DNA of 64,000 nt from Microbotryum violaceum (GCA_001244265.2 CDLV01000009.1:1860001-1924000); one strand, 5' to 3'. Shown: positions 25,822 through 64,000, numbered from the stretch's first letter. Numbers and translations are program-made. Notes: generated by a model not told the origin, from the sequence alone.

Positions 25822-25971
25822 AAGCATCGTCGGATCCGACGCTCCTCCCGTAAGCATCGTCGGATCCGACGCTCCTCCCGTAAGCATCGTCGGATCCGAC
25901 CCTTCCTTCCGTAAGCATCGTCGGATCCGACGCTCCTCCCGTAAGCATCGTCGGATCCGACGCTCCTCCCG
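25822..25971. repeat. Minisatellite, 5 x 30 bp, each unit with a 14-bp palindrome
   Basis: Unit AAGCATCGTCGGATCCGACGCTCCTCCCGT; third unit variant (31 bp); CGTCGGATCCGACG is self-complementary (12-bp core intact in all units). Confidence 0.95.
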
Positions 25972-32730: not shown

Positions 32731-34313
32731 GATATTTCTCGATCGAATATGCCGTCTTCTGCAACACTATCAGGGATAAGGGATAGAATTGAATCAGTAT
32801 CTGTTGAAGCACGTGTCCCCTCTTCTGGTGAGGTTCGACTTTGTCGGGATGGAAGCATACAGTCCTGCGGTGACCTTGGCGCGTGGATCCACGTCGCGCC
32901 ATTCAGCCGGGCCGGTCAAAAAAGATCAACCGTTCGAAGAGTCGCGGAGCCCCACGTGGGACGACCCCCGCAGGGTCTGCGCGGGCCACGTTCAAGTTGG
33001 TCTCGAGTGCACCAGTGCTCGAGCAAGCACCAGTGCGCCAGACCATCTAAACACTTGGTACACAGGCAGATGAAGAAGCAAGCCCTATCTCCAATGTTCA
33101 GGTTGGTTGGAGAACCATCGCAACCCGACTCCTCGACCAATGACACCGGGCTCGGTACTAAACGAACCCAGCGCGCCAGTTCATACGAGGACAAGTCACG
33201 AGCGATATGACACGACATGCGACAGTTCATCGAATATGATGCACGTACCTTCTATCCGATGTGCGAATACGGAGCGCAGGGATTGTGGTGATTGGGGCTG
33301 AAAGGATGTAGAAGGAGAAGCGCAAAAGGTGCACCGGCGAAATGAAAGTTGTCGCGGCTGATTCCAGCTGGTGGCCGCTTCGTCAGCGGGTAAACTCCGC
33401 AGCCATCGATTAACTTTTTCGCGTTCCATTGTGGAAGAAGTTGGAGTGTTGATCTAGTCTAGAAGTGACTTCCCTTCCAGGCTCTGCTTGCACTCAATCC
33501 TAAATAACTTCAGATACCAATAGTTGGGTACCGAGAGGAACCGGAAATGTCCTCACGAGGGCGTTATAAAAGTGGTCTCCGGGTCGGAAGACAGGCGCGT
33601 CGGGCTTGGCTCTCAAATCGGGCAAAATTAATTCGGCAATTCTCGTTGCCAAACGCGCTTTCTGTTGTATCCCCTTGTAGGTACGAGAGCCTCCAAGCTG
33701 AACGTTCAATTTTTCCGGTCCAGATTCTGCCGTTGGCTGGACCACTCCCTTGCATCAACTTAAACGACTGAACCTCCCGCGCAGGTTTCCCCGGCGCGAC
33801 GATCAGCTGGGGCCACAGTTCAGATTTGCTTCATTATGGGGTTCCCGCCGCCCCGGTTTCACCTGGGGCCCCTGCAAGAACTTGGCGCGGGATGATGAGC
33901 TGCCAGTGGCGCTGGGGATCAGAAGATCCGGTCCGGTTGAATTACCTCATCACGAGGAACACGTCCCCGGATGGATTCGTTGGCTTTGTCGATTAAAAAG
34001 TGGTCTCCTTCATCTGAGTATTTATGGCTCGCTAGACCTTGCGATCTGCGCTCCCGGCGGCGGCCCGCCGGACTTCGTCGCCCCAGCCCCAAGCTCCGCA
34101 AATTGGGGTGCCATCAAGTGTTGAGTTGCGCCGAAGCATGAGTCTGGCCTTAGTTTTCTTCATTGAGAGGCTTCAAGCTTCGTAATTCATCGATTCTCGA
34201 TCTATCTCTTTACGGCAATCGTATCTACACTCCGCGCGTAGGCATTGAAGGAGTCTATGCGAAGATTATGTACAACTTGGCACCCAGACATAATCGCGCT
34301 AATAGCTCGTCAG

Positions 34314-34420
34314 TTTGGGCTCACATAAGGTCGGATTTTGGGCCCACGTCGGAGGCGACTCTGGTCCCACATCGGAGGCAACTTTGGGATCACATCTGAG
34401 CGGACTTTGGGATCTCGTCG
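34314..34420. repeat. Degenerate 23-bp tandem repeat (~4.5 copies)
   Basis: TTTGGGCCCACGTCGGAGGCGAC / TCTGGTCCCACATCGGAGGCAAC / TTTGGGATCACATCTGAGCGGAC etc. Confidence 0.75.
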
Positions 34421-34832
34421 CGGAACAAGATCAAGGCGTACGCGAGGGGCTCGAATGTGGGGTCGATCCACGACTCGAGCGCCTTCTGGGGCTGGGTGTC
34501 GTGGTCGTCGACGAGTTCGTAAGCACCGACTTTCTTTTCACTTTTTCTTGTCCTCTTCTATTGATAAGTGCTGGAAAGACGAATCATTCCTTGGTCAAGC
34601 GGGAGAATGAAATCTCCACCTCCGTTGGGAACGACTGTCATAACGTCTTCGACTTTTACTTCTTCTCAGCTGAACTAGCCAGCTCGCCAGCGATCGTTTG
34701 CAGAGCCTCCTCTCAGTCGAAAGTAGTAAGTCTGTTCCTCTTCGTCGATGGCGAATCCCGTACTCGCAAGCTTTTCATCAGCTGTGGGGATTTATAAAGC
34801 AAAACCCTGTCGATTATAGTCGTTCGGCGAGA

Positions 34833-34882
34833 TGAGAGTGCGAGAGTGCGAGAGTGCGAGAGTGCGAGAGTGCGAGAGTGCG
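34833..34882. repeat. (GAGAGTGC)n microsatellite
   Basis: About six tandem GAGAGTGC units. Confidence 0.95.
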
Positions 34883-34959
34883 AGTGTGCACTGTGCGAGT
34901 GTGCGACAATGCGACAAAGGAAGAGAGAACGGCGCGGGTACAGTGCGAAGTTCCCAAAA

Positions 34960-35075
34960 TGTCGCAAATGGAATTCCTTTATTTGTGCGATTAATTGATG
35001 AAGCATCTTCTGGCAATAAAAACGTTTGAAGGGGTCCCAAATCGGCCCGTCGGCAAGCCGTGCCGCCTCCATCAG
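34960..35075 (-). mobile_element. Possible decayed DDE (pogo/Fot1-like) transposase fragment
   Basis: LADGPIWDPFKRFYCQKMLHQLIAQ resembles the QPLD-G-I-x2-PFK-x2-Y motif of DDE_1 transposases; short and degenerate. Confidence 0.3.
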
Positions 35076-35390
35076 CCGCGGTCAGCGCTTGGGCCGAGTA
35101 TGACTTAGTGGAAACTACAACTTCCAGCGCAGCAGGAGTCTGTAGCAGACACAATACAAGATATCCAAAGATATCTAAGGAAACCCCCAGGGGCTTATCT
35201 ATCTATCTAAGATATATTTGGCCTCTAGATAATAAGTCATCTATATCTGAGGGAGATGTACTAAGGTAGATATCTAGACATCTAATGAGGAACCCTGTTG
35301 ACCAGTACCCCAAAAAATGCAGGCACCTTCAAAAGATGCATGCGCCGAATCCTGTCTTTCAACACTCCCACTGATTCTAGCAAAGGCCGG

Positions 35391-35999
35391 GTCGAGGCGT
35401 CGTGCATCAGACCATCAGTCGGTGGATCGACTTGCTGGAGGGAACGATCCCGAGTGCTCTGAAGGTCTTCTGCATCACCTTTTCGCAGTCCAGTCGAGCC
35501 TGAGTTGCCTCAGTGGACCACGCTGGAGGATTCGCGGTTCCTCCAGTGACCGTTTCACGCGTTTGCGTGTTGAGTGATTCGTCACTCGCGCGGTTAGCAC
35601 CCAACGGGTCGTCGGGCGGGGGCGCATGGGCGCTGGCGGATCCGGCATCGGTTGTTGGTGTTGTAGTGAGTTTCTGTAGTGTAGCGTGTGTAGTTGACCT
35701 CGTACCCCCTTAAGTGTTACAAGACAACACCAACACCTGATGTCGGATCCGCCCGGCGCCTATGCGCCCCCGCCCGACGACCCGTTGGGTGCTAACCGCG
35801 CGAGTGACGAATCACTCAACACGCAAACGCGTGAAACGGTCACTGGAGGAACCGCGAATCCTCCAGCGTGGTCCACTGAGACGACTCAGGCTCGACTGGA
35901 CTGTGAAAAGGCGATGCAGAAGACCTTTAGAGCACTCGGGTTCGTTCCCTCCAGCAAGTCGACCCGCCGACTGATGGTCCTGATGCACGACGCCTCGAC
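35391..35999. repeat. Inverted repeat IR1: arms 35391-35664 / 35724-35999, ~59-bp spacer
   Basis: Arms are reverse complements (~95% identity by eye, with a >100-nt perfect stretch). Each carries the 5' end of an ORF (MSDPPGAYAPPPDDPLGANRASDESLNTQ...) pointing outward, tentatively gag-like; TGTAAGGGG (LTR-like start) abuts the right arm and ...GTGTTACA lies in the spacer. Confidence 0.95.
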
Positions 36000-36279
36000 T
36001 GTAAGGGGATGCCTTACAACTTACAAGAACAGCCCCATAAGTAGCCTGTGAGTAGCTAGAATTATCGAGTTCTAGTTACGACTTGCTTTTAGCTAGCGGT
36101 CAACAACGACTAATTGTGTTTTATGCACACCAGTGCGAACCCGTTAAATTACCGGGAGGATCAAATTAAAAAATCGCAGGATAATCGAACAGTCTACACG
36201 ATTCCAGCGCCGAGGTTAAGAAAACACCTTACGAAGTACAGCAAAGAAACGAAATCCATTCATCCTACATTCATCGCCG

Positions 36280-36745
36280 AAACAGCCTGCATGTCGCTTG
36301 TTGCCGGGCTTGGCTTCAAACACTTGTGCAATGAGATCCGGACGGTTGCATGCTTTGTCATTCGGCCCCAGTGCAGCCTTGATTTCCGGTGCTTCGGGGT
36401 CGTACGTCATCGTGATGAGCAGCGGAGGCTTTCCATGTTTGAGAACGCACGCCATCGCATCCTGGTATCGCTGCGTGATGTCGCGCGGTCTATTCTTAAA
36501 CGTCGAGCCCAAGGTCATTGAACGTCCAATTTGGTTCGGGGTCAAGCCGTTGATGCCTCAGGTCGTGGTGAAGCGTAGGTTCTCTTGATGCAACCGGATG
36601 TTTGAGTCGATCGGTCTCGGCTTGGGAGTATATCCGTAAATCACAAACTCCAGGAAGGGACATTGGGTGCAATGCGGGATTGAGAAGTACTCGTCGCGTT
36701 TGGCAAGTAGTGCGCAAAGAATTGTGAACGCGAGACTCGCCACCT
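36280..36745 (-). mobile_element. Helitron Rep/helicase fragment (decayed)
   Basis: IGRSMTLGSTFKNRPRDITQRYQDAMACVLKHGKPPLLITMTYDPEAPEIKAALGPNDKACNRPDLIAQVFEAK matches the Helitron_like_N consensus (LPSSF.G.PR...YQDAMA.V...GKPDLFITMTCNP.W.EI...DRPD..ARVF); internal stop upstream. Confidence 0.9.
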
Positions 36746-37283
36746 CGACCCCTTGACTTGACTTTCGTCCTAGGTGTTCAAAAGTTCAATGTCAGTCTGT
36801 GCTTGCGCCTTAGACAGAATGGAACATCCGAGAAAGAGCCGAAGACGCGTACGTTCGCCATCACCACCCTCTTCGTCCTCCTCTTCGCCTTCGTCATCAA
36901 GACCGAGACCGGCAAGTACCTCGCGCGATTGGACACCATTGTCGATCTGCTCTCGGTTTCTGGCGATTGGCAGCCCAGCTTGGGCAACCCCGCAAAGAGA
37001 AATGTTTGGTTGGAAGCCATCTTCCCCTGCAGGAAATAGTAGTGGCTACCGGAGAGGCAACTGCAGGGCCGGAGGCCTTTGCCCGAGGTATTATGGAAGG
37101 CGATGGAGCTTTGGACTCAGTTGGATAGCTTGCGCGCGCCTAGAACCTCTCTTGGCTTTCGCCAGCTCACTGACCCGAGGTTCTAGACGTGAATTACCAC
37201 TATTTGATCCTGTCTATCGTCAATGGAAGCACCGCCTGCATCGCAATACTACACATGTGAGAAAAGGGGCACCCACCTAGAAC

Positions 37284-38325
37284 CTTCCAGGCCCTCAAGG
37301 AAAAGGACATCGAGCTCGAGCGGCAACTCGCCAAGCTCAGAGGCACCATCGACCCCGACTCCTTCAACAAGCGGTTCTCCGACGCTATAACTGACTCGCA
37401 TAAGGAGCTCTGCCGAGTCCTTACTTGGCAGTACGTCTCGATCTGTCGGCGCCTCCTCAGCTTATCGTCGAAGGTCGCCTAGACATCCCCAATTCGTACA
37501 TTTCTTGTGTCGTGCCGGTCGATTTTAGATGCCATGATCTTGTCGTCACTGTCCCAGAAATCACCGTCGCGGACTGTGCCAGGCGCCCCATGCCGTTCGA
37601 GCTCATGCCCGACCCTACGCGACGCTTCACCCGAGGCGAGTTCCACTACCTGACCGATGAAGAACTGGCCCAATTATCTCCGCGCCGGCTTGAGGAAGTG
37701 TCCTTTGCGTTGCCCGCCAATCGAGAGGTAGTGGTACCCAAAAAGCCCCGAGCAGTGATGGAGTTGGTCCTTACTCCCGACACTCAAGATCCCGTCGCGA
37801 AGCAAGAGGATGTCGATATTGAAGTCCCAGACGTACACGACCCAGTCATCAAAAGGGAGGAGGCCGATCCCGAAGTCAACAGCGTACGCGACCCAGCCGT
37901 CAAGAAGGAGGAGGCCGATCCCGGAGTCGCCAGCGAGAGCGAAGTCTTGTCGTTGTTTGGTAGTGGAACTCGCCTCGGGTGAAGCGTCGCGTACGGTCGG
38001 GCATGAGCCCAAACGGCACGGGGCGCCTGGCACAGTCCGCGACGGTGATTTCTGGGACAGTGACGACAAGATCATGGCATCTAAAATCGACCGGCACGAC
38101 ACAAGAAATGTACGAATTGGGGATGTCTAGACGACCTTCGACGATAAGCTGAGGAGGCGCCGACAGATCGAGACGTACTGCCAAGTAAGGACTCGGCAGA
38201 GCTCCTTATGCGAGTCAGTTATAGCGTCGGAGAACCGTTTGTTGAAGGAGTCGGGGTCGATGGTGCCTCTGAGCTTGGCGAGTTGCCGCTCGAGCTCGAT
38301 GTCCTTTTCCTTGAGGGCCTGGAAG
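37284..38325. repeat. Inverted repeat IR2: arms 37284-37650 / 37959-38325, ~308-bp spacer
   Basis: 367-bp arms with about 6 mismatches by eye; both carry the same unknown-gene fragment pointing inward. Confidence 0.97.
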
Positions 38326-38898
38326 TCGTCGGCGGAGGGGGACTGAGGAGTAACAGAAATGGTGGGGCTCTGCGATAGGTCGGACATGCTGGAGGATCGA
38401 GTGTCGCGGATGGTGGAAGAAGGAGAGAACGAGAGGCCTCTCAACACAGACGCGTTTTTATGTCAGTCGGTCGGGACGACCTCCTCGTCTGGGGGGAGTT
38501 GTGGTACTCGGGATCCCGTCGCGTGCAGCAAAGTCGGAAATGAGACTTCTGTTTTCAGAAATAAGATGGGACTCCTGATCTCGTCGACTGAATTAGAGTA
38601 CTCGGGTCACGCGGACGTCGGCGAATTCGGTGGTCTCGGGGATCGGGCTGGAGTCGCCTAGTCGGGAAGCGCGGATTCGGCTAACTCGGCGTAGCGCCAC
38701 ATGAGCGGATAAAAGTTCAGAGCAAGGAATGGCGTGATCAGGACGAAGTATGGCGTGATCAGAAGGCCGAGTGTCGGAAAAGAGGAGGAAGCTGGCCCGG
38801 AGGGATTGGAGTGTCCTGGCGTTGGAGGGGAGACTCGCTTCTTGTTCGGGGGAGATCAGACCCCCTTTGGAGGGAGACGACTCTCGGAGGAGTGGACC

Positions 38899-39141
38899 AG
38901 GACCCGGGAAAGCTCAGCCCAATGTGCGTCTCGAAGATTTGTACTTTTCGGGCCCATTTATGCCTTGTGCTATGCTACATGACGTGGTTTTTCATGGTAG
39001 AGTAACTTTTTCAACACAACCCAATAATCTGGTCTTATACCGGAATACATACACCCCTTATATAGGGATATTCGGTGTACAAATCGGCCTAAAACCGTGA
39101 TTTTTTCGAGACGCACCTTCGGCTGAGCTTTCCCGGGTCCT
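38899..39141. mobile_element. MITE (243 bp), 37-bp TIRs, 8-bp TSD
   Basis: TIR AGGACCCGGGAAAGCTCAGCC(C/G)AA(T/G)GTGCGTCTCGAA at both ends; AGTGGACC duplicated at 38891-38898 and 39142-39149; AT-rich non-coding interior. Confidence 0.9.
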
Positions 39142-39288
39142 AGTGGACCACTTGGAGAGAGGACATTTCTGCGAATCTATCATTCTCAGTTTCACTTTCT
39201 GCGTGTTTCTCGTTTTTCGGCATCTCGGTCTCTGCGTTTCGATAGTAATCAGCCCCCTGTCTCTGATCGTCCGCTCACTATTACCATA

Positions 39289-42153
39289 AAGGTATGCAGG
39301 ACAATCACAGAGTGATTCACCTAATGACTTGCCTGCAGATCGCTGACGAACTCCTTCCAGTGCAAATCTTCAGACGACTCCTCCTTTGATTACTCCATCG
39401 CCGATCAGACCGATGTCTCGTTTGCTCCCAGCCAAATCTTCATCTCCCCTCGATACGTCAAGCTTGCGTCGTTCGCTGCCAGGGCCGATTTTTCGGAAGA
39501 AGTTCTTAAGTCGACCAGCTCCGCTCTCGACCTCGGCACGCTGCCGGCAGAAACACTACTGTTAATGCGGCTATGTTTTTGTTCCCTTCCGCATCAAACA
39601 ACGCCTGCAGAATCATCTCGCTTACTGAAATTGCTACCGCCTAATCGTCACCTCAGATCTACCGGCACCCTAAAGATTGTCATCAATTTCTGCATTGCAC
39701 TGCCATCCCCGCTCAACGCTCGCTCGTAAGCCGCACCTCTACAAGATGAGGGCAGGACTGGAACACCCCCGCCTACAGTCACTCTGGTGAAAGCACACTG
39801 CATCTTGGCGAGGCGGCATCAGCATCGAGCTTCTTTGCCATAGCCCAAGCGGAGGCCGACGACGAGGTGCGACGGCAGAATCGTCAACTAGCCGAGTTCC
39901 GCACCTCAAGTGATGGCCACCGCTACTCCCGGTCATCGCACACCCATCCGAACGACGTACAACATCCGAATGACCCGGAAGATGGAGACTACCCGGAATT
40001 ACCGAAGTACAACGAGGGACGAATAAAGATGACCAACCTCATGCTCGATGAATACCCTAGAGAAGTCGTTTTCGATTCATGGAGATCCAACGGCCGTTCC
40101 AATGTCGAATGGTGGCTTGTCGTATCTGTGGTCTTTCTCAGCATCGGGCAATCGAAGTGACTCGGGTGGCGTCTGGCAAGGCCCATGTCCGGAACTGAAC
40201 ATCCAGTATATCAAGTACAGCAAGAGATACTGCTTTGGGTGTGTTTCTGCGTCCGATGTTGCGACCGATCCTGTTGTGGCAAGCGTCGACCTCCGACAAA
40301 GATATCAGTACCAAGGAGGGCAAATCGCCTGGAGGAGGTCGAAGCGCTGGACACTACACAGGGAGCGCCACCTCGTGCAAAGCGATTGGTCCGAACGTAG
40401 AGCGCACATCATCGCAAATCCAACTCTGTCCAATCTCAGCTTACAACGGGCCAATGAAGCACATTCTCTGTTCGGCAAGCATAATTCGAGCACAACGCAA
40501 GGATCACCCGGGCGAGGTCTTCATTTTTCCACAACCATCCTCCTCCGCCTGTCTCGTCCGTCATCGGAACAAATGGTACAACTGCAACGTCTGCGTCATG
40601 CCATGTCCCAAGCATCGCGGCAGAGCTACGCATGGGCCAGATGACCGCTTGCATAGACAACCCACCACACCGGCCGTCCGCTTCCGAGATCTGTCCACTA
40701 TACGACAATACTAGGACGATTGCCAGGCACAGATCTCGGAAGCGGACGGCTGGTGTTGTGTGCTGTCTGGCAAAGCGGTCATCTGGCCCATACGTAGCTG
40801 TGCCGCAGATGCTTGGGGCGGGACGCGGCATCACGCAGACGTTGCAGTTGTGCCACCTGTTCCGATGACGGACGAGAGACAGACAGGCGGAGGAGGATGG
40901 TTGTGGAAACCCGAATGCAAAATGAAGAGCTCGCCCGGGCGATCCTTGCGTCGTGCTCGAATGATGGTTGCCGAATAGAGAATGTGGTTCTTTGGCCCGT
41001 TGCAAGCTGAGATAGGACATGGTTGGATTTGCGATGATGTGCGCTCTACGTTCGGACCCATCGCTTTGCGCGAGTTGAGTTTGTTGGGCGCTTCCTGTGT
41101 AGTGTCGAGCGCTTCGACCTCCTCCCGGCGATTCGCCCTCCTTGGTACTGATAACTTTGTTGGAGGTCGACGCTTGCCACAGCAGGATCGGTCGCAACAG
41201 AGAAACTCACCCCCACCCAAAGCAATATCTCTTGGTGTACTTGAAATACTCGGCGTTCAGTTCCACCAACCGAGTCGCTTCGATTGGCCGATGCTGAGAA
41301 AGATCAGATACGACATGCCACCAACGGAACCTGGGACGACATCGTTGCCGTTTCAACGTCGAATGGGTCTCCATGAATCGAGAACGACCTTTCTGGGGTA
41401 TTTTTCGAGCATGAGGTCGGTCATCTTCATTCGTTCTTCGTTGTACTTCGGTAATTCCGGGTAGTCTCCATCTTCCGGGTCATTCGGATATTGTACGTCG
41501 TTCGGATGGGTGTGCGATGACCGGGAGTAGCGGTGGCCATCACTTGAGGTGCGGAACTCGGCTAGTTGACGATTCTGCCGTCGCACCTCGTCGTCGGCCT
41601 CCGCTTGGGCTATGGCAAAGAAGCTCGATGCTGATGCCGCCTCGCCAAGATGCATTGTGATTTCAGCAGTCCTGACGAGAGTGACTGTAGGCGGGGGTGT
41701 TCCCATCTTGTAGAGGTGCCGCTTGCGAGCGAGCGGGGATAGCAGTGCAATGCAGAAATTGATGACAATCTTTAGGGTGCCGGTAGATCTGAGGTGACGA
41801 TTAGGCGGTAGCAATTTCAGTAAGCGAGATGATTCTGCAGGCGTTGTTTGATGCGGAAGGGAACAAAGACATACCCGCATTGACAGTAGTGCTTCTGCTG
41901 GCAGCGTGCCGAAATCGAGAGCGGAGCCGGTCGACTTGAGAACTTGGTCCGAGAAATCGGCCCTGGCAGCGAACGACGCGAGCTTGACGTATCGAGAGGA
42001 GATGAAGATCTGGCTGGGAGCAAACGAGACATCGGTCTGATCGGAGTAATCAAAGCAGGAGTCGTCCGAAGATTTGCATTGGAAGGAGTTCGTCAGCGAT
42101 CTGCAGGCAAGTCATTACTGGGTGAATCACTCTATGATTGTCCTGCATACCTT
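39289..42153. repeat. Inverted repeat IR3: arms 39289-40694 / 40729-42153, 34-bp spacer
   Basis: ~1.4-kb arms align as reverse complements throughout (roughly 85-90% by eye, several indels). Both encode the same decayed ORF (MTCLQIADELL..QIF..LL, ...EADDEVRRQNRQLAEFRTSSDGHRYSRSSHTHPNDV..., ...CPISA.NGP..HIL...CNVCVMP...PAVRFRDL) pointing inward. Confidence 0.97.
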
Positions 42154-43479
42154 GGAGAGCAATCCCGAGCTCGTCAGCAAGCTCGTCGAGCACATGCTGA
42201 AGATAAACGAAACGACAGGCTCCTGCTGTGAAGTTGATGGGGACAGAGGGCGTCATTCGCACCGCCACGCCAGCAACTAAGTAGCCGGAGGGAGATCGTG
42301 CTTCGACGGTCGAAACTGAGCACGTGGAGCCCGCCACACCATGATATCAGCGATGTCCAGAGTAATGTACAGATATTGAGTTGGAAATTTGAAAACGTAC
42401 CATTAATTCTCAGAGCAATCGATTCAGGAAAATGACGAGTGGTACTGAGGGATGGCGAAATCGACGCGCTGTCTTGCGGAAGAGCCCGCCGATTGAGTGT
42501 TCGAGAGCGAGAGGTTCGGTGTTAAAATGCAATGACGACGTTGTCCCTTGCGGCCGCGGTGCACCCAGATCGGTGTTGGAAGTGATACCATTGAATCTCA
42601 ACGTCTGATCGAGAGTGTTCGTTGCTGAAAACAAAAGAGGAGATGTAGAGGTGCGAAACGGGAACACGCCGTTGGAAATCCGACTGGAAATGGTAACCGC
42701 ATCGTCGCAATGATGGTGGCCCCCGTCTTGGCCGACTTCGCTCTTATGCACACTACGGCTTGGATCGAGATTGATACTTGGTGCTAGGTGGTTGTCTCTG
42801 CATTGCGAAGGTAGAGGATGAAGGTGGGGCCGGCACCGCGCCCGTCGACGTGGCCGCAAGGTGGTCGCCAGCCTCAGGCGCTCAGACCCTCAGCAGTTGT
42901 CATCGTCAAGTTCGATGGAGGCTTCTGATATGGGTGTCAAGATCGGCTGATGCTCGAAGCTCGGTTGCTTGCGTGCTGGCTTGGCGTACGGTGTCTTCGG
43001 CCGTGTTGCGAGTTGCTGAACGCGCCTGGGGCCGGCCGTCGCGTCAACCTTCGCAACTCCATTGACCGTCCTGAAACTTTGATCCGACTAGGCCACGTTG
43101 ACGCTTCCGAAGGCCAACTCCTCGCGAAAGAAAGCGAGACGACAGCCACGCCAAACAACTACTACAGTAAGTCGGGTCTGAAACGTGCGGCGGCGCGGCC
43201 CTGACTGATACTACGCGTCAAACAATTGAGTGGTCGGCGAGGGAGGGTGGAGTAGAGGGGGGCGAGGGTAAGGGGGCGGGTGGGCGAAGGGGCAATTCAT
43301 GCAAGGGAGGCGCTCGGCTGAAAAAGTCCCGCTCGAGCTTCAATTTGCACCGGCCGGGGGACAAAGTCCTCGCCAAATTTGTTCACCAAGAGGAGTCTGA
43401 GCTTCTTGTGTAACTCAATCGGGTCAACTCGATCTTCTTGAGTTAACTGTGAGCTCCAGTGAGCAGCCCGAGAGCGACG

Positions 43480-44811
43480 GATAGGCAGTTCGGGGGTTGT
43501 GTTGGTTGCGTCGTCAAGGAGATCGAGGACGCGGTCATGATCGCTATCCACGGTCGAGCCTCGGACGGATCTCAGAAACCCCCGAAGGTCTCTCGGCTGC
43601 GCCTCTGCACCCCTCTCGACCACGGCGGCTTTGGCTTGATTGACTTACCTCGGCGCCTCGCGGTCGATCACGCCAAGTGGGTCTTTCATCTTCGGGACCC
43701 GGACGGCTGCTTCATTCGGCACCTCTTCGACATCCGCACTCGCCTTCAGGCGGCGAACGAACGCACCCCCTTTACCTTGCCCAAATCAGGCCCCAACCCA
43801 CATCGTCGCTCGTGGGTCTGGATCTGGTGGGCCTACTTTTGCCACCCTCCTCCACAGTGGGAACGCGCAGTGAGGAAGACGAAGGCCCTGCTCCCTCCAC
43901 GATGGATCCGCTTTTTCGAAGCCTGGGATTTGGTGACAACGCTGAACCCCCCCGAACTTTCCAAGAGCCCGAATCTGGAGCGGTGGGCAACACACGTCCT
44001 CTACTTCCCAGCAGGCCACGGAATCCGACTCTCGGTGAACCCGACGCTTTTCCGAGGACCCGATGGCGAGGTGATGACTCCGTCTTCGTTTGTGAACGCG
44101 TCCAAACGCCACCAAGCCTTCCTCTACCCTCCTATCCTCCCTCTCGGTCATCAGAGGGTTTTCTGTCTCCCCGAGCAACGCTGGAATGCCTGGTGGAAGG
44201 CGCTACGCAAGATTCGCAGGGTTCATTCGGACGCCGAAGACACGGCCCACCTCCTCTCCCTAGGTTCACTTCATCCAGGTAGCCAAATCGCTTCTCCAAA
44301 TAGCCGTTCTCTCCACAATCGATCTACCGCATGTGTCATGTGCCTGTCGGAGGCTCCGGAGACCCTGGCACACCTTGCGGTCGGTTGCCCGTTTGCCCGC
44401 CGCCTCTGGTCTGCGCTCACTCCTATCCCACACCCCGACTTTGTTCAGTTCGTGTGCCCGGTCGTTTCTCGCTCGGAACGCCGACCCGTCGAGCTGCGTC
44501 TACTCTTCTTCCACGCGATCTGGAAGCTCTCTCGTCGCCGTCGATTTTCGTCGGATCCTCTGGAGCCGATCGCCGAAACGGCATTTGAGGAGCTCCGCGC
44601 GTCCATCCAGGAGTCCAAGGGACGACTGGTTTCGCTGTAACCGCCTAAGGGGGTTTTAGTGGGTATGGTTGATTTTGTTCCAAGGTCAACGAGTCCCACA
44701 CTACTGGCCTCGCCAGTGTGCTTAACTGCATTCCCTCCGTCTTTTCCGAGGATTTTTAGGCATTAATATAGATATGCTGTTAATGAAATCTATTAGATAA
44801 AAAAAAAAAAA
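43480..44811 (+). mobile_element. 5'-truncated non-LTR retrotransposon (L1/Tx1-like LINE) with poly(A) tail
   Basis: Post-RT motif LCTPLDHGGFGLIDL; zf-RVT knuckle CVMCLSEAPETLAHLAVGCPFARRLW; stop 44640; 3' UTR hairpin ACTGGC-CTC-GCCAGT (~44703-44717); A13 tract at 44799-44811. Confidence 0.9.
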
Positions 44812-45599
44812 GAGTTCCCTTGATGTCGTTGGCTTTGCCCTCGAAGCGGATCGTAAGGGCGACTCTCTGAACTCAATCGATGGAGACCGACGCGGTGTGC
44901 CCTTGAAAGGCGTTGGCGTTTGTACGGGCATGGTGGATCATGAGGGCGGTAGCGACGTCGGGGACTGCAGTGGCGTTGTGGACCGAAGGTGAGACCGGTG
45001 AGGCGCGGCTGGCTGATTCACGTCGGCGCGAAGAACCGTCCCTCTGGGTCCGTGCGCGAGCCAGCTCCAAGTCGAAAATAACGGCTCTCACCGCTGTAGC
45101 TCAATGAATAGGATTTGAAAGACTCTTCTCTTGGGTAGATGCTCGAAAAATAGCATAAGAGCGCGCCTATTGCAACGATTGTATAGGTTGATTTTATTTC
45201 CCATGCTACAGCAAGGTGGTAGGCTTGCGACCCGCGATCTCAGTCGGTGGGAGTTCTTCAGCACCACAGCTCGGCTCGAGAAGCTGTACCGCGACTCGAC
45301 GCACTGGGGGCAGTCGCTGAAGCGGCCGGTGTCACTGTTTCATCGATCAAGTCCGAACTCCTAACGCTTCCCGAATTGCTCATGCTTCCGCCATGCCTCT
45401 CTTCACTCTACCGATGACGTTCGTTACGCGTATGACGATGACTCGGAGGACGCAGTGGAAAAGTGGGGGTTACTAGTAGATCGCGGACTTGTACTGGAGG
45501 GACAATGAAAGCGGACGGGCTCTGTTTGGTCATCGACGCGGGTTCTGGCAGCACTCTAAGGAACCCACCCTACAGCACGAGCACGTGTGGTAGCGCGTG

Positions 45600-46335
45600 G
45601 GTCAGTTGCTCAAGGCGAAAGCCTTGCTCGGATACCTCTCAAGGAGGCTCCCCGTCCTCGAGGCTTCAACTTCTTTAAGCTCTCCCCGCCTTTTACGATT
45701 CGCAAGCTTCTTCGGCTTGTGAACATGGTGCGGTTCCCAGGGAGGGAGGACTGTATCAAGTGTTTCCCTCGTTGGACTTATCAGAGCGACACGCAGCGCT
45801 TCTGGAGATGGCTCCACGACCGGTTCGCTTCGGTGGCGGAGCAGGACACCCACTGGCGGCTCATGTACCATGTGACATCGACGCGCAAGCTGCAGCACAT
45901 TCGGGGCCAGGCTTTGTCGCCGTCGTCTGTGTTCTGTGGCAACGATTCAGCGGTCATCGAGATGGTGTCGCACTACTTTTTCGAGTGCGCGTACTCGACC
46001 AGCTTCTGGGGCGGGGTGCTGCGCATTCTGGTCGACAAGCTCGGCATCGAGGATGTGAACGTCGATCCGTCGACGTTCACTCCGGAGCAGCTGACTATGG
46101 GGCTCCCCTTTTGCGGGGTTGTGGGAGAACGACCTCGAAATGGGTGTGGGTTCGGCTGGCCTGCGCGATCGGCTTCCAGCGGCTGCACCTGCTCCGTTGG
46201 CGCGTTCATCAGCGGTTCGAGCTGGACAACGTCGTGGCCCCGCCCTCGCTCCCCAGTGCGCTCAGAACGTTCGAGCGAGATTTTCTCTCTTGAGCGGGCT
46301 TTGTGCCTGGGGCTCGAGATTGGGAGGTGTGATGA
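45600..46335 (+). mobile_element. Second, different LINE 3' fragment (frameshifted)
   Basis: FWRWLH...HWRLMYH...SVFCGNDSAVIEMVSHYFFECAYSTSFW (decayed zf-RVT), continuing in another frame as LPLLRG...WVRLACAIGFQRLHLLRWR. Confidence 0.75.
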
Positions 46336-47385
46336 CCGATTTAAGTCCTTCCTTCCCATTTTCCTCCCCTCCTCTCTCCCCCCTCCTTTCCTCCCTTCTT
46401 TTTCGGAGGTCGACTTTTCTTTCAGAAGCTGACTGTCTCGCAACATGTTGCACAGTGGGAGGCTGCGCACCTTTCTTTACTTTGCGCAGTAGCGGTTTCC
46501 GTTCTTGGATGGATCGGCAAGCCGGGTCGATCGTGTTTGCGTTGGGGGCTTTTGTCCCCTCTCCCCCCCCCCCCTGTTTCCCTTCCCTTCCTCTTCTCGT
46601 TCCTGTTACTCGGTCTTTGAATCCGCGTCAACCACTTCTCCTTGTATTCCTAAGCCGTGTGTTGGATTCCGTCGAATGGATCGTTCGTTCGCGTCGGTCA
46701 AGATCTACGGCATGGATCGGGAAGAAAGGTGATTCGTTTTTGGTCAACATCCTCGCGTCAAGGCGAGGCTCGTTTCGTTGTATTGGATAGTTTTTCGCTC
46801 GGCCCCGACGGCTCAACAGCCAGCACTCGAGACTCAGCCGAGGGAGGACATCAGGTGCTGTCGGGATGGCGAGTAGCGCCTGTTAGTCTCTGGGGACCTC
46901 TATCTCTGACTCAGCTTCGACCCCCTCCCTTGGCCCCTCCGGTGTGTTCCCCTCCTCTCTGTCTTAGTAGTCCTGATTCTCCGTGTTTCCAATCTGTATA
47001 TTCTCCCCCTTTATTTCTCTCAGCGCTCTCGCCTGGTTTTCGAGTATCTTCGCTCTCGCTCTTGGGACGTGAAGCGGCAGCAGTACTCAACGCCCCGAGC
47101 CTCAGGTTTCGACTTGGTACTTTAACTACATTCGGCCATCAGGCACCGTCTACTGGAGCACCGCTTCCTCGAGACCTTTTGCTAATTTCCACCGCGTCCT
47201 TCAAGCTTCAAGTCTTAGCACCCCTTCCGCCCTCTGTGCAATTCGGACCTGGTCCATAAGGGTCACCCATTCCTTACTCTCGTATCTCATCCTCGTTCTC
47301 GTTTGAGAAAAAAATCTCTGAACCATTTCTTCATCGCTCCAAAACAAAAAAAATCAACCTATTCTTAACACCCTCGAAGCTCTAC

Positions 47386-50372
47386 TCAATCCCACCCACT
47401 AAAAACCTGTAAAGCATCCTTGACCCTCTCCCTCACGTCTAAACTAACATCCGTACTCAACTCACCCAAAGCCCGATTCACCCCCTTGTTTCTCAAAAAA
47501 TCTAGAATCTCAGTCGTCGTAGGGGATGAGGAAAGTGGTTTTATGGTGATTGGTTCAGTGGGATTCGAGTACGGTCTTGGAGGCCTCGTTGAGTGGGAGT
47601 AGGTCGGAGTTGGAATTGAATTCGAAGAGGGTGGGATGGGTTGTGAGAGGTTGATGAAAACCCATACGGTCGCGCATCGTACATCCGCAAGTTTTGCTTT
47701 CTAAACAAAACCAAAATCAAAAAAAATCAACCCCCAACACCCGTCAAACGGCTTCGTAGCTCTGTTGTGGAAATGGAAGGAAGGCTTACCAAAGCGCCGA
47801 TCAAAAGATCCAACAATCCATGTTGAACCAAGATCATTCTCTTCATATCCATATCCCCCGCCGCCAAATTGACTAGCGTATAAAGAACTTGGAGTCTCAC
47901 ACCCGCTTCTTCTTGTATAGGCCATTCTGAGGGATCGTTCTCGAGTTCTAAAACGTCCGCGCAGTGCTTGATCACCTCTTCCGGCTTGATCAGTGGCGTG
48001 TCGGATCCGGGTGGAGGTGGAGAGAATAAGGCGGGAGTCGAGTTACTACCGTTGGTACATGTGAGGTTACGAAGGATCCCGAAAGCTTGTTCGGAGACGC
48101 TCGTTTGCTTTGTCAAGAGAAAAGTGCGTAGGTTGGGCCAGCCGAGAAGAGTCAAAAGACGCGTGTTGAATTCATATGAAGCCTGATAACTCGCTGGTAG
48201 CAGGAGTGAAACGAGAAAATGAGTTTTTGAAGCATGGTCAATTGTTTGTGTCGATCCCCGTAAAACGTACCATTCTTGAGAGCCCACAACACGTTAACGT
48301 CTATTACCTCTTGCCTCTTCCTCCTCCCTCCTCCCCCATTCTTCTTCATCCCTCTCGAACCCTCCTGGGCCATCCCTACAATCTCCTCCACCACCCCCTC
48401 TTCAATCAACGTCCCTCTCATCGGACTAAATTCCAACAACAAATTCGAAACGGTCGCGACAGCCGTAATCCTAACGACTTGATCCTCACCCTTTCCCAAA
48501 AGTTTAACGAGCGGTTTAGCAGCTTCGGTTTCTACCAAACTCGTTCGTAAGAGATGTACGCTCCTTGATAATGATCTCAAAGCATGACATGCTGCAGCTT
48601 TAACTTTGGGTAAAGGGTGGGAGAGGTATTCGACGATGAATGGGATCAAATTCTTCTCTTTGACGAGTTGGCGATCATCTTCAGATTCGGCGGTTAGGAG
48701 AGCGATTAATATCAAGGCAGCTTGGATAGGTGTAGAGTTGGGAAGTGGTCCATAGTAAGCTTCGTCGGATAAAGTAGTAGTGGTGGTGGTGGTAGAGAGA
48801 GATGTGGTCGGTTTGAGTAGTAGTTTCTTGACAACGTCGAGTACTCGGTTATTGGAAGCTCCATAAGTTTCGAGTGAAAATTTGATTCCCACCAAATACG
48901 CTAAGATCGAATACATCGGACTCCTGATCAGTAATGGGGATTCCGAGCTATACGTGACTGTCGAAACTGACCCAGTGCGAAACAGGCCCTCCCTCGTAAG
49001 TTGTCGTCCCCATCGACCAAAGTCACCAAAGTCGCGGCGACGGAATCGATCCCGAGTTCCCGCGCGGCGGTGCGATCAAACTCGAGAGACGAAAATGTGT
49101 TTGAAAGCCGTCTCGATTGAAAGAGTACAATCCTTGCAATGGTTGCTGTAAGTCGTCGAGATGCGTTCGCGGATTGGGAGAGCGCGTTCAAGGTCGGAAA
49201 GAGTGGACTGCCGCCTTGAGCTGCGTGAATCAAGAGGTACACCCGAATCGAATCAGCAACAAGTTCTTCGTAAGCCCATACCCTCCCTCGATACTGACCT
49301 CCGATGCATGCTTTGAGGGTATCAGTTTCATCTTTGAACAGCGCCGAGATGGCAGCAATCGCACTCTCTTGCACCCTGCCCGTTGCCGTGGTGACGATTC
49401 CAACGAGCGAATCCCACATCTTGTTTGTGGTCGTACCCGTCTGAAGAACGGCTTCACGTTGCTGTCGGGTTCGCACCGTCGACGCGAACAAATCGCACAC
49501 GAGTTCAGCTCGCTTGTATCGCAATCGCAAACTTTGCGGGTCGAGCGATGAGGAATCAAAATTGAGCATAGCGGCGAGACCGAGGAGAGCGGTCGAGGTA
49601 GGCGAGTACAAGTCCGACAACGCCTTTGCAGCAAGTCGTTTGAGGTTACTCTGCGAAGATCGTCCGGTTCGAAAATCTTTGTCCATCGTCTGATCGTCGT
49701 CATCGTCGTCGCTGTCGTCGTCAAAGTCATCCACATTGCGCGAGTTAGACTGATCGCGCTTCGCATACTTGATAGAAGGACTGATAGGAGTAAGTGATAG
49801 CAAGTCATCGCCCCACTCGCTTGGCCCTACACATTCGACCAGGTCCGAGTAGACGACCTTGATCGATCGCAGTACGGATTCGAGTAGTTTGTCGTGGGTG
49901 AACGACGAAGCGATGGCGGCGGTGACGGGCGACGATGAGGATGATGCTCGATCGCATGTGATGTACACGAGTGCAGACAGGAGGGTTTGGTGAACTTGAT
50001 TATTGAGCAGTACGAGTTGAGCTTGATGAGTCGCTGTGATTGCAGAAATGACGTGGTAGTCGTCAGTGTTTGTGAACGGTCCAAGACTCGAGGCGTCTGT
50101 CTGCGTCCCTCGCATGACTGACGCAAAGACAAGGTCCCCAAGAGCGTCACCGCCTCATTGACCACTTGCAACTCTGTAGGCTGCGTATCCGGTCGCACGT
50201 GATGGCCGCCGAGTTGGACAAGTTGCTCGAGCGCGCCGGGATGAGCGAGCACGACGAGCTTGCGGGCATGGTGGCCTATCAACGCATGCTTCAACTGGCT
50301 CAGGATAGAAAGTTGCGTCGCGGTCGGTAGATTCGTAGGATAGGGGATCGGTGGGGAGAAGGCGATGGCCAT
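47386..50372 (-). CDS. Armadillo-repeat protein ARMC8/Vid28 (GID/CTLH complex)
   Basis: LSQLKHALIGHHARKL, VKAAACHALRSLSRSVHLLRTSLVE, ATVSNLLLEFSPMR, LWALKN, EQAFGILRNL, LYTLVNLAAG, C-terminal LDVRERVKDAL. Confidence 0.85.
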
Positions 50373-62912: not shown

Positions 62913-63631
62913 CGAAAATTACTTCTTTTCTTCCCAGCATACCTTCGAGCTTTCTCCTTCCCTCACCTGCTCAGTTCCTACGCCCATCCTTCCTGTGCAC
63001 TGTCCGCCATCGTTTCCACAGAGCGGCTCGAGTGGCGCAATATTCAGCGCAGAGCGAACCACATGAAGCTTCACAGGGTCCTAATCAAAGATCTCCAAGA
63101 CCTCAGACAATCCATCGACCAATCCTACGCTGATGCCATCACCGAGGGCCTGAAGGAGGTAGTACAGATTGTGAACTGGCAGTTCGCGGCCCTTTTTCGG
63201 CGCATCCTCTTTATCGAAGCTCAGCTAGGTATCCCTGACGACGACTTCTGCGGGGGCCAGCAACCCCGCACCCTATGGGCTCCCGAATATCAGACGTCGT
63301 CGTCATGGATACCTTGCCGAGTTTCGAGAACGAGGATGCGCCGAGAAAGAGCGGCGAACTGCAAGTCACAATCTGTACCACCTCCTTGGGGCCCTCAGTG
63401 ATGGATTTGGCGCAGGATTGGTTGATGGATTGCTGGGGGTCTTGGAGATCTTTTGACTGGGACCTTGAGAAGCTTGATGTGGTCCGCACTGCGCTGAATA
63501 TGGCGCCACTCGAGCCGCCGCTCGGTGGAAACGATAGCGGACAGTGCACAGGAAGGATGGGCGTAGGAACTGAGCAGGTGAGGGAAGGAGAAAGCTCGAA
63601 GGTATGATGGGAAGGAAAGAAGAAATTTTCG
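62913..63631. repeat. Inverted repeat IR4: arms 62913-63250 / 63291-63631, 40-bp spacer
   Basis: ~340-bp arms are reverse complements (outer ~90 nt near-identical, inner part ~80-85% by eye); left arm reads MKLHRVLIKDLQDLRQSIDQSYADAITEGLKEVVQIVNWQFAALFRRILFIEAQLGIPDDD. Confidence 0.95.
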
Positions 63632-63677
63632 CTTTGGCCATCGCGCGCTTTCTCTACTCTCGGCGCCTCCCCTGGTT

Positions 63678-63896
63678 TCGGCTAGGTATCCCTGACGACG
63701 ACGTCTGGTGTTCAGGAGCCCATAGGGCGTGGAGGTTCACTGCCACAACATGCTCGTCAATTTTCCAGGCATCTCGCTCGGAAAAATTGACCAGCATCCT
63801 GATGCTTGGAAAGCTCACGAGCATGTTCTGGCAGTGAACTTGTGCGCCCTATGGGCTCCTGAACACCAGACGTTGTCGTCAGGGATCCCTAGCCGA
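63678..63896. repeat. Inverted repeat IR5: arms 63678-63773 / 63801-63896, ~27-bp spacer; right copy continues past the window end
   Basis: TCGGCTAGGTATCCCTGACGACGACGTCTGGTGTTCAGGAGCCCATAGGGCG...GTTCACTGCCACAACATGCTCGT pairs with its reverse complement; 63847-64000 also directly repeats ~63271-63423. Confidence 0.92.
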
Positions 63897-64000
63897 GTTT
63901 CGAGAACGAGGATGCGCCGAGAAAGGGCGGCGAACTGCCAGTTGACGATCTGTACCACCTCCTTGAGGCCCTCGATGATGGCATTGGCGCAGGATTGGTC

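What the first reader, a model, noticed from the sequence alone, without database searches (positions are those of the whole stretch)
35391..42153. Three long fold-back repeats of unrelated TE/gene fragments in 7 kb: candidate hairpin-RNA (siRNA master) locus
Seen: IR1 (~275-bp arms, 59-bp loop), IR2 (367-bp arms, 308-bp loop) and IR3 (~1.4-kb arms, 34-bp loop) lie side by side. Each is made of a different sequence family, interleaved with Helitron, MITE and LTR-like debris, and LINE fragments follow. Established: long short-spacer palindromes are normally unstable, and read-through transcripts of them form Dicer substrates (plant IR loci, Drosophila hpRNA loci); many basidiomycetes retain RNAi. 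Inference: three palindromes of differing divergence at one site, plus two more at 63 kb, suggest a mechanism that captures mobile-sequence fragments and stores them as hairpins, i.e. a fungal analogue of a piRNA-cluster/TE trap. A palindrome-generating repair hotspot is the alternative.
Basis: partly seen in the sequence, partly recalled or inferred. Interest (0 to 1): 0.85.

Follow-up and report, generated by a model that had tools for sequence, protein, structure and literature searches.

The report
Fold-back copies of transposon front ends
Three real, old palindromes in a transposon graveyard of the anther-smut fungus Microbotryum each hold two inverted copies of the front part of a different mobile element; they could make double-stranded RNA if transcribed, but nothing shows a dedicated system that captures transposons.

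Summary
IR1 is 35391-35999, IR2 is 37284-38325 and IR3 is 39289-42153, with the stated arm and loop sizes.

They are not assembly artefacts. The centre of IR3 is bridged by identical 657-base contigs in two independent studies. IR2 and IR3 also appear in gene models of the sister species M. silenes-dioicae.

The arms are front-end fragments of three different repeat families:
- **IR1:** codons 1-88 of a LINE, head to head.
- **IR2:** about 120 codons of a Microbotryum-only repeated ORF.
- **IR3:** 1.4 kb of a multi-copy, probably Mutator-like transposase gene, tail to tail.

None of the three has target-site duplications or RIP-like decay. Arm sequences sit at about 1-4x single-copy depth. The abundant Helitron (about 400x) and LINE pieces beside them are not in hairpin form.

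Best reading: independent accidental fold-back duplications that persist as relics. IR2 and IR3 keep the gene start on one copy, so a read-through transcript would be a hairpin like that of maize Mu killer. The host has RNAi genes. No RNA data could be obtained. The piRNA-cluster analogy is not supported.

The parts
35391..35665 (-). IR1 left arm: front end of a LINE ORF (about codons 7-88), read on the minus strand, outward from the centre
   Evidence: P0026 aa 7-81 matches 35631-35410 at 85%. Arm alignment.
35666..35724 (.). IR1 loop, 59 nt
   Evidence: unpaired tip of the predicted hairpin.
35725..35999 (+). IR1 right arm: LINE ORF codons 1-88, read outward. The two copies are head to head.
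   Evidence: P0026 aa 1-88 matches 35740-36000 at 85%. In one search, 10 of 17 hits carry RVT_1 (PF00078).
36006..37285 (-). Fragment of a very abundant Helitron family, lying between IR1 and IR2 and not in hairpin form
   Evidence: Helitron_like_N at 36216-36557(-), E = 1.7e-15; depth of 81916-86360 in the two bins 36006-37007, against 213 for single-copy flanks in X1.
37284..37650 (+). IR2 left arm: copy of a repeated orphan ORF that lacks its 5' end (about aa 22-140 of P0002)
   Evidence: P0002 aa 22-85 and 79-138 match 37285-37640.
37651..37958 (+). IR2 spacer, 308 nt. It continues the reading frame of the left copy and contains two 51-nt tandem units.
   Evidence: the window's own 130-aa ORF P0015 and its orthologue P0001 run from 37590 to 37979..
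37959..38387 (-). IR2 right arm (37959-38325) plus the 5' extension that only this copy keeps, with the ORF start at 38387
   Evidence: P0002 aa 8-85 matches 38366-38133..
39289..40694 (+). IR3 left arm: copy of a multi-copy, probably Mutator-like transposase gene that lacks its 5' end (about aa 55-440 of the family), more decayed than the right copy
   Evidence: P0004 (M. silenes-dioicae g10835) matches it at 97-98%.
40695..40728 (+). IR3 spacer, 34 nt, which continues the left copy in frame
   Evidence: The left-copy matches of P0006, P0007, P0016, P0017 and P0011 run to 40739; the right-copy matches of 7 of 8 family proteins stop at 40729.
40729..42873 (-). IR3 right arm (40729-42153) plus the upstream first exon and N-terminus (42154-42873) that only this copy keeps. 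The annotated gene MVLG_05711 lies on it.
   Evidence: P0003 100%; P0005 aa 14-216 matches 42873-42152; P0012 aa 6-183 matches 42796-42110.
43453..46864 (+). LINE fragments to the right of the palindromes, in one orientation only
   Evidence: zf-RVT. (P0024 aa 1530-1902 matches 45227-46329; aa 4-42 matches 46707-46864); relative depth about 60-250x.
62913..64000 (.). Second cluster of nested inverted repeats, built from three copies of a distant homologue of the IR2 ORF. It is cut by the end of the window.

Best explanation
The 15-kb gene-free stretch (about 33-48 kb) between two host genes of Microbotryum lychnidis-dioicae is a transposon graveyard. Three separate local inverted (fold-back) duplications happened there at different times.

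Each one copied the front part of a different repeated element:
- IR1: a slightly 5'-truncated LINE start.
- IR2: a Microbotryum-only repeated ORF.
- IR3: a multi-copy, probably Mutator-like transposase gene.

The likely cause (inferred) is a broken or stalled DNA end, or for the LINE a cDNA end, that folded back on itself and was copied. The spacer was later flipped by exchange between the arms.

The palindromes have persisted for a long time, IR2 and IR3 since before the split from M. silenes-dioicae. Their centres are asymmetric and diverged, and the region is unconstrained.

They are by-products, not a dedicated store. If a transcript runs from the retained 5' end of the right copies of IR2 or IR3 through both arms, it would form a long hairpin that the fungus's Dicer could cut. 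That would be incidental.
For: **Real.** Identical 657-base contigs cover 40395-41051 across the IR3 centre in runs X1 and X7 (two studies, two organism labels), with 0 differences and at single-copy depth. M. silenes-dioicae genes g10833, g10835 and g10836, all on one contig, reproduce the IR2 loop/right-arm junction and both IR3 arms.

**Duplications, not paired insertions.** Both IR1 arms end near the same LINE codon (aa 136-139). LINE insertions normally lose the 5' end, not the 3' end (general knowledge).

**Same topology in IR2 and IR3.** In each, one copy continues into the spacer and the other keeps the gene start.

**Not transposon insertions.** No direct repeat of 5 nt or more lies within 8 nt of any of the 3 pairs of boundaries. 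No terminal-repeat match was found between the IR3 flanks.

**Different ages.** Mismatch identity between arms is 98.4% for IR2, 94.7% for IR1 and 93.0% for IR3.

**Diverged centres.** IR3 blocks from outside to inside: 0.96, 0.91, 0.98, 0.98, 0.97, 0.86, 0.89, 0.92, 0.92, 0.90.

**Low copy.** Arm bins are at about 0.8-4.5x the single-copy depth in X1, while the neighbouring Helitron is at about 400x.

**Arms identified**.
Against: - Six or more inverted-duplication events in about 8 kb of repeat DNA within one 64-kb window is a lot for accidents. All three main ones involve the 5' part of an element, which hints at a shared cause.
- The same ORF family forms palindromes at two places, IR2 and 63 kb.
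- I could not compare this with the genome-wide density, because no genome is held.
- The topology of IR2 and IR3 needs an extra step, a flip of the spacer, on top of a simple snap-back.
- The contig pieces listed do not explicitly bridge the centres of IR1 and IR2.
- Depth from contigs is only a rough guide to copy number, as the tool itself warns.
Confidence: 0.65

Rival explanations
1. Mu killer-like silencers. At least IR2 and IR3 are transcribed from the promoter kept by the right-hand copy, or from a neighbour. The transcript reads through both arms and folds into a long hairpin. The hairpin is diced into siRNAs that silence close relatives of the same element subfamily in trans. The origin is still an accidental duplication, but the locus has, or once had, a silencing effect.
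For: - Only the right copies of IR2 and IR3 keep the ORF start and upstream DNA, and both point into the palindrome.
- Perfect duplex runs reach 111 nt (IR2) and 164 nt (IR3), and runs of 21 nt or more total 339 and 549 nt.
- The predicted IR2 hairpin has an energy of -909 kcal/mol.
- The RNAi core genes are present and expressed in this species (PMC4469406 passages).
- Precedents exist. [quoted passage not shown] Inverted Ac fragments give dsRNA and siRNAs (abstract of bioRxiv 10.1101/2020.01.07.897926). Palindromic loci give 74% of siRNA reads in Naumovozyma castellii (PMC7528652 passages).
- The cognate subfamilies are now nearly absent at 90% likeness or more, as expected after effective silencing.
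Against: - Very few sequences close enough to be targeted remain. The large living relatives of the IR3 gene are only about 45% identical in protein.
- The IR1 copies are head to head, so their own promoters would read outward and give no hairpin.
- The arms show no CpG-biased or TCG-biased decay of the kind expected if they were long-term methylated or RIP-like targets.
- Low copy number is equally what an old, dead subfamily looks like.
Confidence: 0.25
2. A dedicated capture system. The locus is a fungal counterpart of a piRNA cluster that actively takes in pieces of invading elements and stores them as hairpins.
For: Several palindromes of unrelated families lie side by side and have different ages. 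More lie at 63 kb. All of them hold 5' parts of elements.
Against: - The most abundant families present at the locus (Helitron, LINE bodies) are not stored as hairpins.
- No shared junction motif, target-site duplication or common flanking signal was found.
- The breakpoints differ between IR2 and its homologues at 63 kb.
- No protein of such a system is known or seen nearby.
- Fungi are not known to have a PIWI/piRNA pathway (general knowledge).
Confidence: 0.05
3. Fold-back or MITE-type transposons with long terminal inverted repeats that inserted here.
For: Long inverted arms with short spacers resemble fold-back elements. A small MITE-like element does lie next door at about 38889-39154.
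Against: - No target-site duplications at 0 of 3 palindromes, even for IR2 whose arms are 98.4% alike.
- The arms are internal gene fragments, not element termini.
- In IR2 and IR3 one copy runs on beyond the arm.
- Depth is about 1-4x, so there is no family of copies.
Confidence: 0.03
4. Assembly artefact: a chimeric fold-back produced by the sequencing or the assembler.
For: Palindromes with short spacers are a known failure mode of some long-read libraries (general knowledge).
Against: - The IR3 centre is bridged by identical contigs from independent short-read data sets.
- The arms differ by 1.6-7% and by many indels.
- The same structures are annotated in an independently assembled sister species.
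- The reference of this strain was built from 454 reads with Newbler (PMC4469406 passage).
Confidence: 0.02

Closest known systems
Mu killer (Muk) of maize
   Same: A natural partial inverted duplication of the 5' part of a Mutator-superfamily transposase gene (start of the abstract of PMC3440606). [quoted passage not shown]
   Different: [quoted passage not shown] Here no terminal repeat was found, transcription and small RNAs are unknown, the Mutator assignment rests on language-model similarity only, and close targets are almost absent.
Inverted Ac fragments in composite insertions made by alternative transposition in maize (bioRxiv 10.1101/2020.01.07.897926, abstract read)
   Same: Accidental DNA-level events create inverted duplications of fractured transposon pieces that can be transcribed into dsRNA.
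   Different: Those arise from two nearby active elements during replication and were shown to give siRNAs and silencing. Here the elements are dead fragments, and neither the mechanism nor any RNA product has been observed.
Palindromic siRNA loci of the budding yeast Naumovozyma castellii (PMC7528652, passages)
   Same: Genomic inverted repeats in a fungus whose transcripts form hairpins. This is the main precedent showing that fungal palindromes can be major Dicer substrates.
   Different: In N. castellii the small RNAs have been measured (74% of siRNA reads). No small-RNA data exist for this locus.
Decayed palindromes of transposon fragments seen earlier in this scan in a red alga (e1-556491, e1-559515)
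   Same: Old inverted duplications of the front end or tail of a known transposon family, judged there to be ordinary relics.
   Different: A different organism, reported there to lack RNA interference, and single palindromes rather than a cluster. These are AI notes that I did not check.
Drosophila hpRNA loci and plant inverted-repeat loci (recalled, not read here)
   Same: Long inverted duplications of target sequences that produce endogenous siRNAs.
   Different: Those have documented transcripts, small RNAs and target genes. None of that is available here.

Membership tests
Hairpin-RNA / endogenous siRNA locus | Long inverted repeat able to fold into an extended duplex | tested here: met
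   perfect runs up to 119, 111 and 164 nt; IR1 z-score -38.
Hairpin-RNA / endogenous siRNA locus | One transcript that spans both arms | not testable with these tools
   No listed run is on record as RNA. X18 is only guessed to be RNA and its 29 million letters of contigs look genome-sized (my judgement), so it was not used as expression evidence.
Hairpin-RNA / endogenous siRNA locus | Dicer-dependent 20-25-nt RNAs from the arms but not the loop | not testable with these tools
   No small-RNA data were reachable. The term 'small RNA' occurs 0 times in PMC4469406.
Hairpin-RNA / endogenous siRNA locus | Host has Dicer, Argonaute and RdRP | not tested
   Reported for this species in PMC4469406 (passages). 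I did not verify it.
Mu killer-type transposon inverted duplication | Partial inverted duplication of the 5' part of a transposase gene | tested here: inconclusive
   IR3 arms cover about aa 55-440 of a protein family of about 750-1560 aa with 9 paralogues besides the query. No member hits Pfam MULE (0 of 8 at E up to 10). The Atlas gives MULE clusters at 0.92 twice.
Mu killer-type transposon inverted duplication | Includes the element's terminal inverted repeat | tested here: not met
   No inverted match longer than 12 nt between 38326-39300 and 42140-43520.
Mu killer-type transposon inverted duplication | Silences active copies in trans | not testable with these tools
   The only related observation is that IR3 bins are at 0.8-2.2x single-copy depth at 90% likeness or more, so few near-identical targets exist.
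piRNA cluster / transposon trap | Holds fragments of the active, abundant families as the small-RNA source | tested here: not met
   The Helitron (about 400x) and LINE 3' parts (about 60-250x) are single-orientation. The hairpin arms are at about 1-4x.
Fold-back / MITE transposon | Target-site duplication at the outer ends | tested here: not met
   0 of 3 palindromes have a direct repeat of 5 nt or more within 8 nt of the ends.
Fold-back / MITE transposon | Several copies with the same ends | tested here: not met
   Depth is 0.8-4.5x single copy. A paralogous contig runs straight across the outer end of the IR2 right arm (X3, 38069-38444).
LINE (non-LTR retrotransposon) fragment, for IR1 | Similarity to proteins with reverse transcriptase and endonuclease domains | tested here: met
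   17 hits at E of 0.001 or better among 108 candidates; 10 of 17 carry PF00078. The arms map to aa 1-88 at 79-85%.

The most novel reading that the evidence does not exclude
Fold-back duplication of the front ends of mobile elements is a recurrent route by which this RNAi-competent basidiomycete acquires heritable hairpin triggers, that is, natural fungal counterparts of maize Mu killer. On this reading IR2, IR3 and the 63-kb cluster are, or were, siRNA sources, and their cognate subfamilies are now nearly extinct because they were silenced.
Probability: 0.15. Interest if true: 0.7.

Novelty: new member of a known kind. Interest (0 to 1): 0.35.

Why it matters
How a genome first recognises a new transposon is an open question. 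The best-documented answer is an accidental inverted duplication of the element that makes hairpin RNA, as in Mu killer and the Ac composite insertions of maize.

Here one short stretch of an RNAi-competent fungus holds several such duplications of different elements. At least two are older than a species split. If they prove to give small RNAs, Microbotryum would offer a compact natural system for studying this step, with sister species for comparison. If they do not, the locus is an ordinary relic. It still shows that short-range fold-back duplication is frequent in this genome's repeat DNA, and that two annotated 'genes' here (MVLG_05711 and the 130-aa ORF) are pieces of dead elements.

Tried and rejected
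- **Whole genome:** not held. Genome-wide palindrome density and the search for intact target copies could not be done.
- **RNA evidence:** no RNA holder was listed among 24 runs. X18, guessed to be RNA, has 29 million letters of contigs, which looks genome-sized to me, and was not used for expression.
- **Supplementary files:** those of PMC4469406 (expression tables) are closed and may hold expression values for MVLG_05711. A full-text search for that locus tag found 0 papers.
- **Mutator assignment of the IR3 family:**
  - Pfam found nothing (0 of 8 members at E up to 10).
  - A profile search of PDB sequences gave no hit below E = 0.059.
  - The AlphaFold model was unusable (mean pLDDT 28.5), so I ran no fold search.
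- **Target-site duplications** and **terminal repeats around IR3**: none found.
- **RIP-like or methylation decay between arms:** rejected. In IR3, 56 transitions (17 at CpG, 5 in TCG) against 37 transversions. CpG observed/expected is 1.06-1.19 in the arms and 1.07 in the island, against 1.08 and 1.20 in the genic parts.
- **Intron in IR2:** I first read one there, but dropped it. The homologues P0002 and the 63-kb copy are similar through that stretch, so both arms share a frameshift instead.
- **Rfam and tRNA scans of the window:** nothing.
- **Earlier findings of this scan:** none for this genome or sequence.
- **Literature:** searches for Microbotryum with small RNA/Dicer, inverted repeats/Helitron, and palindrom* listed no paper whose title or abstract deals with nuclear palindromes or small RNAs in Microbotryum.


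Full report
**Observation**

- IR1 is self-complementary over 35391-35999. Arms are 275 nt (35391-35665 and 35725-35999) with a 59-nt loop.
- IR2 has 367-nt arms (37284-37650 and 37959-38325) with 6 mismatches, no gaps and a 308-nt spacer.
- IR3 spans 39289-42153. Arms are 1406 and 1425 nt around a 34-nt spacer, with 1268 matches, 95 mismatches and 139 gap columns.

As RNA, IR1 folds to -597 kcal/mol against a mean of -236 for 20 shuffles (0 of 20 as good). IR2 folds to -909 kcal/mol.

In the whole window, 10 inverted pairs have arms of at least 80 nt within 6 kb. Six belong to this region and four to 62.9-64.0 kb. A self-BLAST finds almost no other repeats inside the window.

**Where it is**

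Named public proteins identical or nearly identical to the window's ORFs place it in Microbotryum lychnidis-dioicae p1A1 Lamole. MVLG_05711 is 100% identical over the IR3 right arm.

The window carries ordinary genes on both sides:
- a GYF-domain protein
- a raffinose-synthase-like protein
- an Arm/HEAT-repeat protein
- a PPR protein
- an Fe-ADH
- eIF3m
- a JAB/MPN protein

The stretch from about 33 to 48 kb has none of these. It holds a Helitron_like_N fragment (36216-36557, minus strand, E = 1.7e-15) and LINE fragments.

**Real, not an artefact**

I laid the contigs of four public runs from four studies on 33000-48000.
- Identical 657-base contigs cover 40395-41051, straight across the IR3 centre, in X1 and X7. 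They have 0 differences and sit at the depth of the single-copy flanks.
- Contigs also run from unique left flank into the IR1 left arm (34855-35476 in X1, 34855-35500 in X7).
- The listed pieces do not explicitly bridge the centres of IR1 and IR2.

IR2 has independent support. The M. silenes-dioicae protein g10833 (P0001) is 95% identical to the window's ORF from 37590 to 37979. It ends with the same residues, which are encoded by the first 21 nt of the right arm.

On the same contig of that species, g10835 matches the IR3 left arm at 97-98% and stops at the same place in the spacer. g10836 covers the right arm plus its upstream exon.

Orthologous arms (97-98% protein identity) are much closer than the two arms are to each other in the same segment (88%). 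So IR3 predates the species split. IR2 does too, because it is present in both species.

The reference of this strain was assembled from 454 reads with Newbler (PMC4469406 passage).

**What the arms are**

*IR1.* The arm ORF hits 17 proteins at E of 0.001 or better among 108 longer candidates. Ten of the 17 carry a reverse-transcriptase domain. The arms map to residues 1-88 of these 1800-1950-residue LINE proteins at 79-85% identity. The right arm is read on the plus strand and the left arm on the minus strand, so the copies are head to head. Both arms end near residue 136-139 of P0024.

*IR2.* The arm belongs to an ORF with only 2 hits in 5.8 billion clustered proteins, both from Microbotryum. 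The M. saponariae protein P0002 covers the part upstream of the arm and the arm itself. Both arms share a frameshift relative to it. A homologue 31-40% identical forms the palindromes at 63 kb.

*IR3.* The arm ORF has 9 hits in 1.84 billion representatives. The distant ones belong to a family of about 750-1560 residues, with 9 paralogues besides the query: eight in M. silenes-dioicae on several contigs and one in M. saponariae. The arms cover about residues 55-440 of that family.

Pfam does not recognise the family. Two language-model searches, one with the whole of P0007 and one with residues 520-900 of P0016, both put MULE-transposase clusters first at 0.92. The conserved D...D...CxFH...NAVES pattern in the alignment recalls Mutator-type transposases from memory. 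I therefore call it 'probably Mutator-like' and no more.

**Anatomy that bears on origin**

IR2 and IR3 share one topology.
- The left copy lacks the gene's 5' end but continues in frame into the spacer. In IR3 the spacer encodes PLYDNTRTIAR, against PVFDSTRSISR in the family consensus.
- The right copy stops at the spacer but keeps the ORF start and upstream DNA. That is position 38387 for IR2 and up to 42873 for IR3.
- Right-arm matches of 7 of 8 family proteins end exactly at 40729 (P0019 runs on to 40630). Left-arm matches of five proteins run to 40739.

None of the three palindromes has a target-site duplication. The IR3 flanks share no terminal repeat.

Arm identity differs (98.4%, 94.7% and 93.0%), so the events were separate. 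Inside IR3 the outer half is 96-98% identical apart from one block, and the inner half is 86-92%. That fits gene conversion in the outer part, or decay that stabilises the centre.

The substitutions show no RIP-like bias: 5 of 56 transitions in TCG context and 37 transversions in IR3. CpG is not depleted.

**Copy number**

Relative to the single-copy flanks in X1 (213-225), the depths are:

| Region | Relative depth |
|---|---|
| IR3 bins | 0.8-2.2x |
| IR2 bins | 2.0-3.9x |
| IR1 bins | 2.9-4.5x |
| Helitron fragment | about 400x |
| LINE pieces at 43.5-47 kb | about 60-250x |

The tool warns that summed contig depth is only a rough guide. The Helitron ratio does agree with the 373 Helitron copies tabulated in PMC4469406.

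Variant contigs show at least one paralogue of the IR2 ORF elsewhere in the genome. It runs uninterrupted across the outer end of the right arm (X3, 38069-38444, 12 differences).

**Explanation**

The simplest account is three independent local fold-back duplications. A broken, stalled or nascent end (for the LINE, perhaps the cDNA end) folded back and was copied. Later the spacer flipped by exchange between the arms. These steps are inferred, not shown.

What is shown:
- The structures are real.
- IR2 and IR3 predate the split from M. silenes-dioicae.
- The three arm pairs differ in divergence, so they formed at different times.
- They are made of the front ends of elements.
- They are low in copy number.
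- They are not bounded like transposons.

The host has one Dicer, two Argonautes and one RdRP, all expressed (PMC4469406). The right copies of IR2 and IR3 point into the palindromes. A read-through transcript would therefore be a long hairpin with perfect runs up to 111 and 164 nt.

That makes IR3 a structural counterpart of maize Mu killer (PMC3440606 abstract) and of the inverted Ac fragments that trigger silencing (bioRxiv abstract). Palindromic loci dominate siRNA production in the yeast N. castellii (PMC7528652). Whether any RNA is made here could not be tested.

**Against the 'transposon trap' reading**

- The families that are abundant in this genome and present at the locus are not in hairpin form.
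- The sequences that are in hairpin form have almost no close targets.
- The breakpoints share no motif.
- No dedicated machinery is visible nearby.

Earlier notes of this scan describe similar relic palindromes of transposon front ends in a red alga. I did not check them.

**Verdict**

- The capture-system idea is not supported.
- Interest is moderate to low unless small RNAs are found.

Noticed in passing
window 62913-64000: A second nest of inverted repeats: 62913-63631 (85% over 732 columns), 63678-63896, and 63117-63250 against 63867-64000. It is built from three copies, in the order plus, minus, minus, of a distant homologue (31-40% protein identity) of the IR2 ORF. The window end cuts it. 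So the same ORF family forms palindromes at two places.
   Followed up: partly
window 38466-38521 and 62820-62876: A 57-nt stretch is 91% identical, in matching orientation, upstream of the IR2 ORF and of its distant homologue. The coding parts themselves are only about 31-40% identical in protein. It may be a conserved promoter or an element-end motif.
   Followed up: no
window 37177-37285: A 108-nt segment is flanked by the 9-nt inverted words AGGTTCTAG and CTAGAACCT. In all four runs, contigs at about 14-20x single-copy depth join 37177 to 37285 on opposite strands. So this segment is inverted here relative to most copies of a repeat family. The IR2 left arm starts exactly at its right end.
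   Followed up: partly
window about 38889-39154: A MITE-like element of about 266 nt with roughly 45-nt terminal inverted repeats. The bins that hold it are at roughly 9-25x single-copy depth across the three DNA runs, and 10-12 variant contigs per run cover it in X1, X3 and X7.
   Followed up: no
window 25822-25971: A perfect 59-nt direct repeat (25822-25880 and 25913-25971) lies inside a weakly palindromic 135-nt stretch, in an otherwise genic part of the window.
   Followed up: no
window 41356-42032 and 37590-37979: Two annotated protein-coding genes lie on dead element copies: MVLG_05711 on the IR3 right arm, and a 130-aa ORF that runs from the IR2 left arm through the loop into the right arm. 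Exon 1 of the MVLG_05711 model is read in a different frame from the family protein. They are probably not real genes.
   Followed up: partly
window 36006-37007: The Helitron fragment sits at about 400x the single-copy depth in two runs. That is close to the 373 Helitron copies tabulated for this genome in PMC4469406.
   Followed up: partly
window 34834-34914: A tandem array of an 8-nt unit (GAGAGTGC, about 10 copies) just left of IR1.
   Followed up: no
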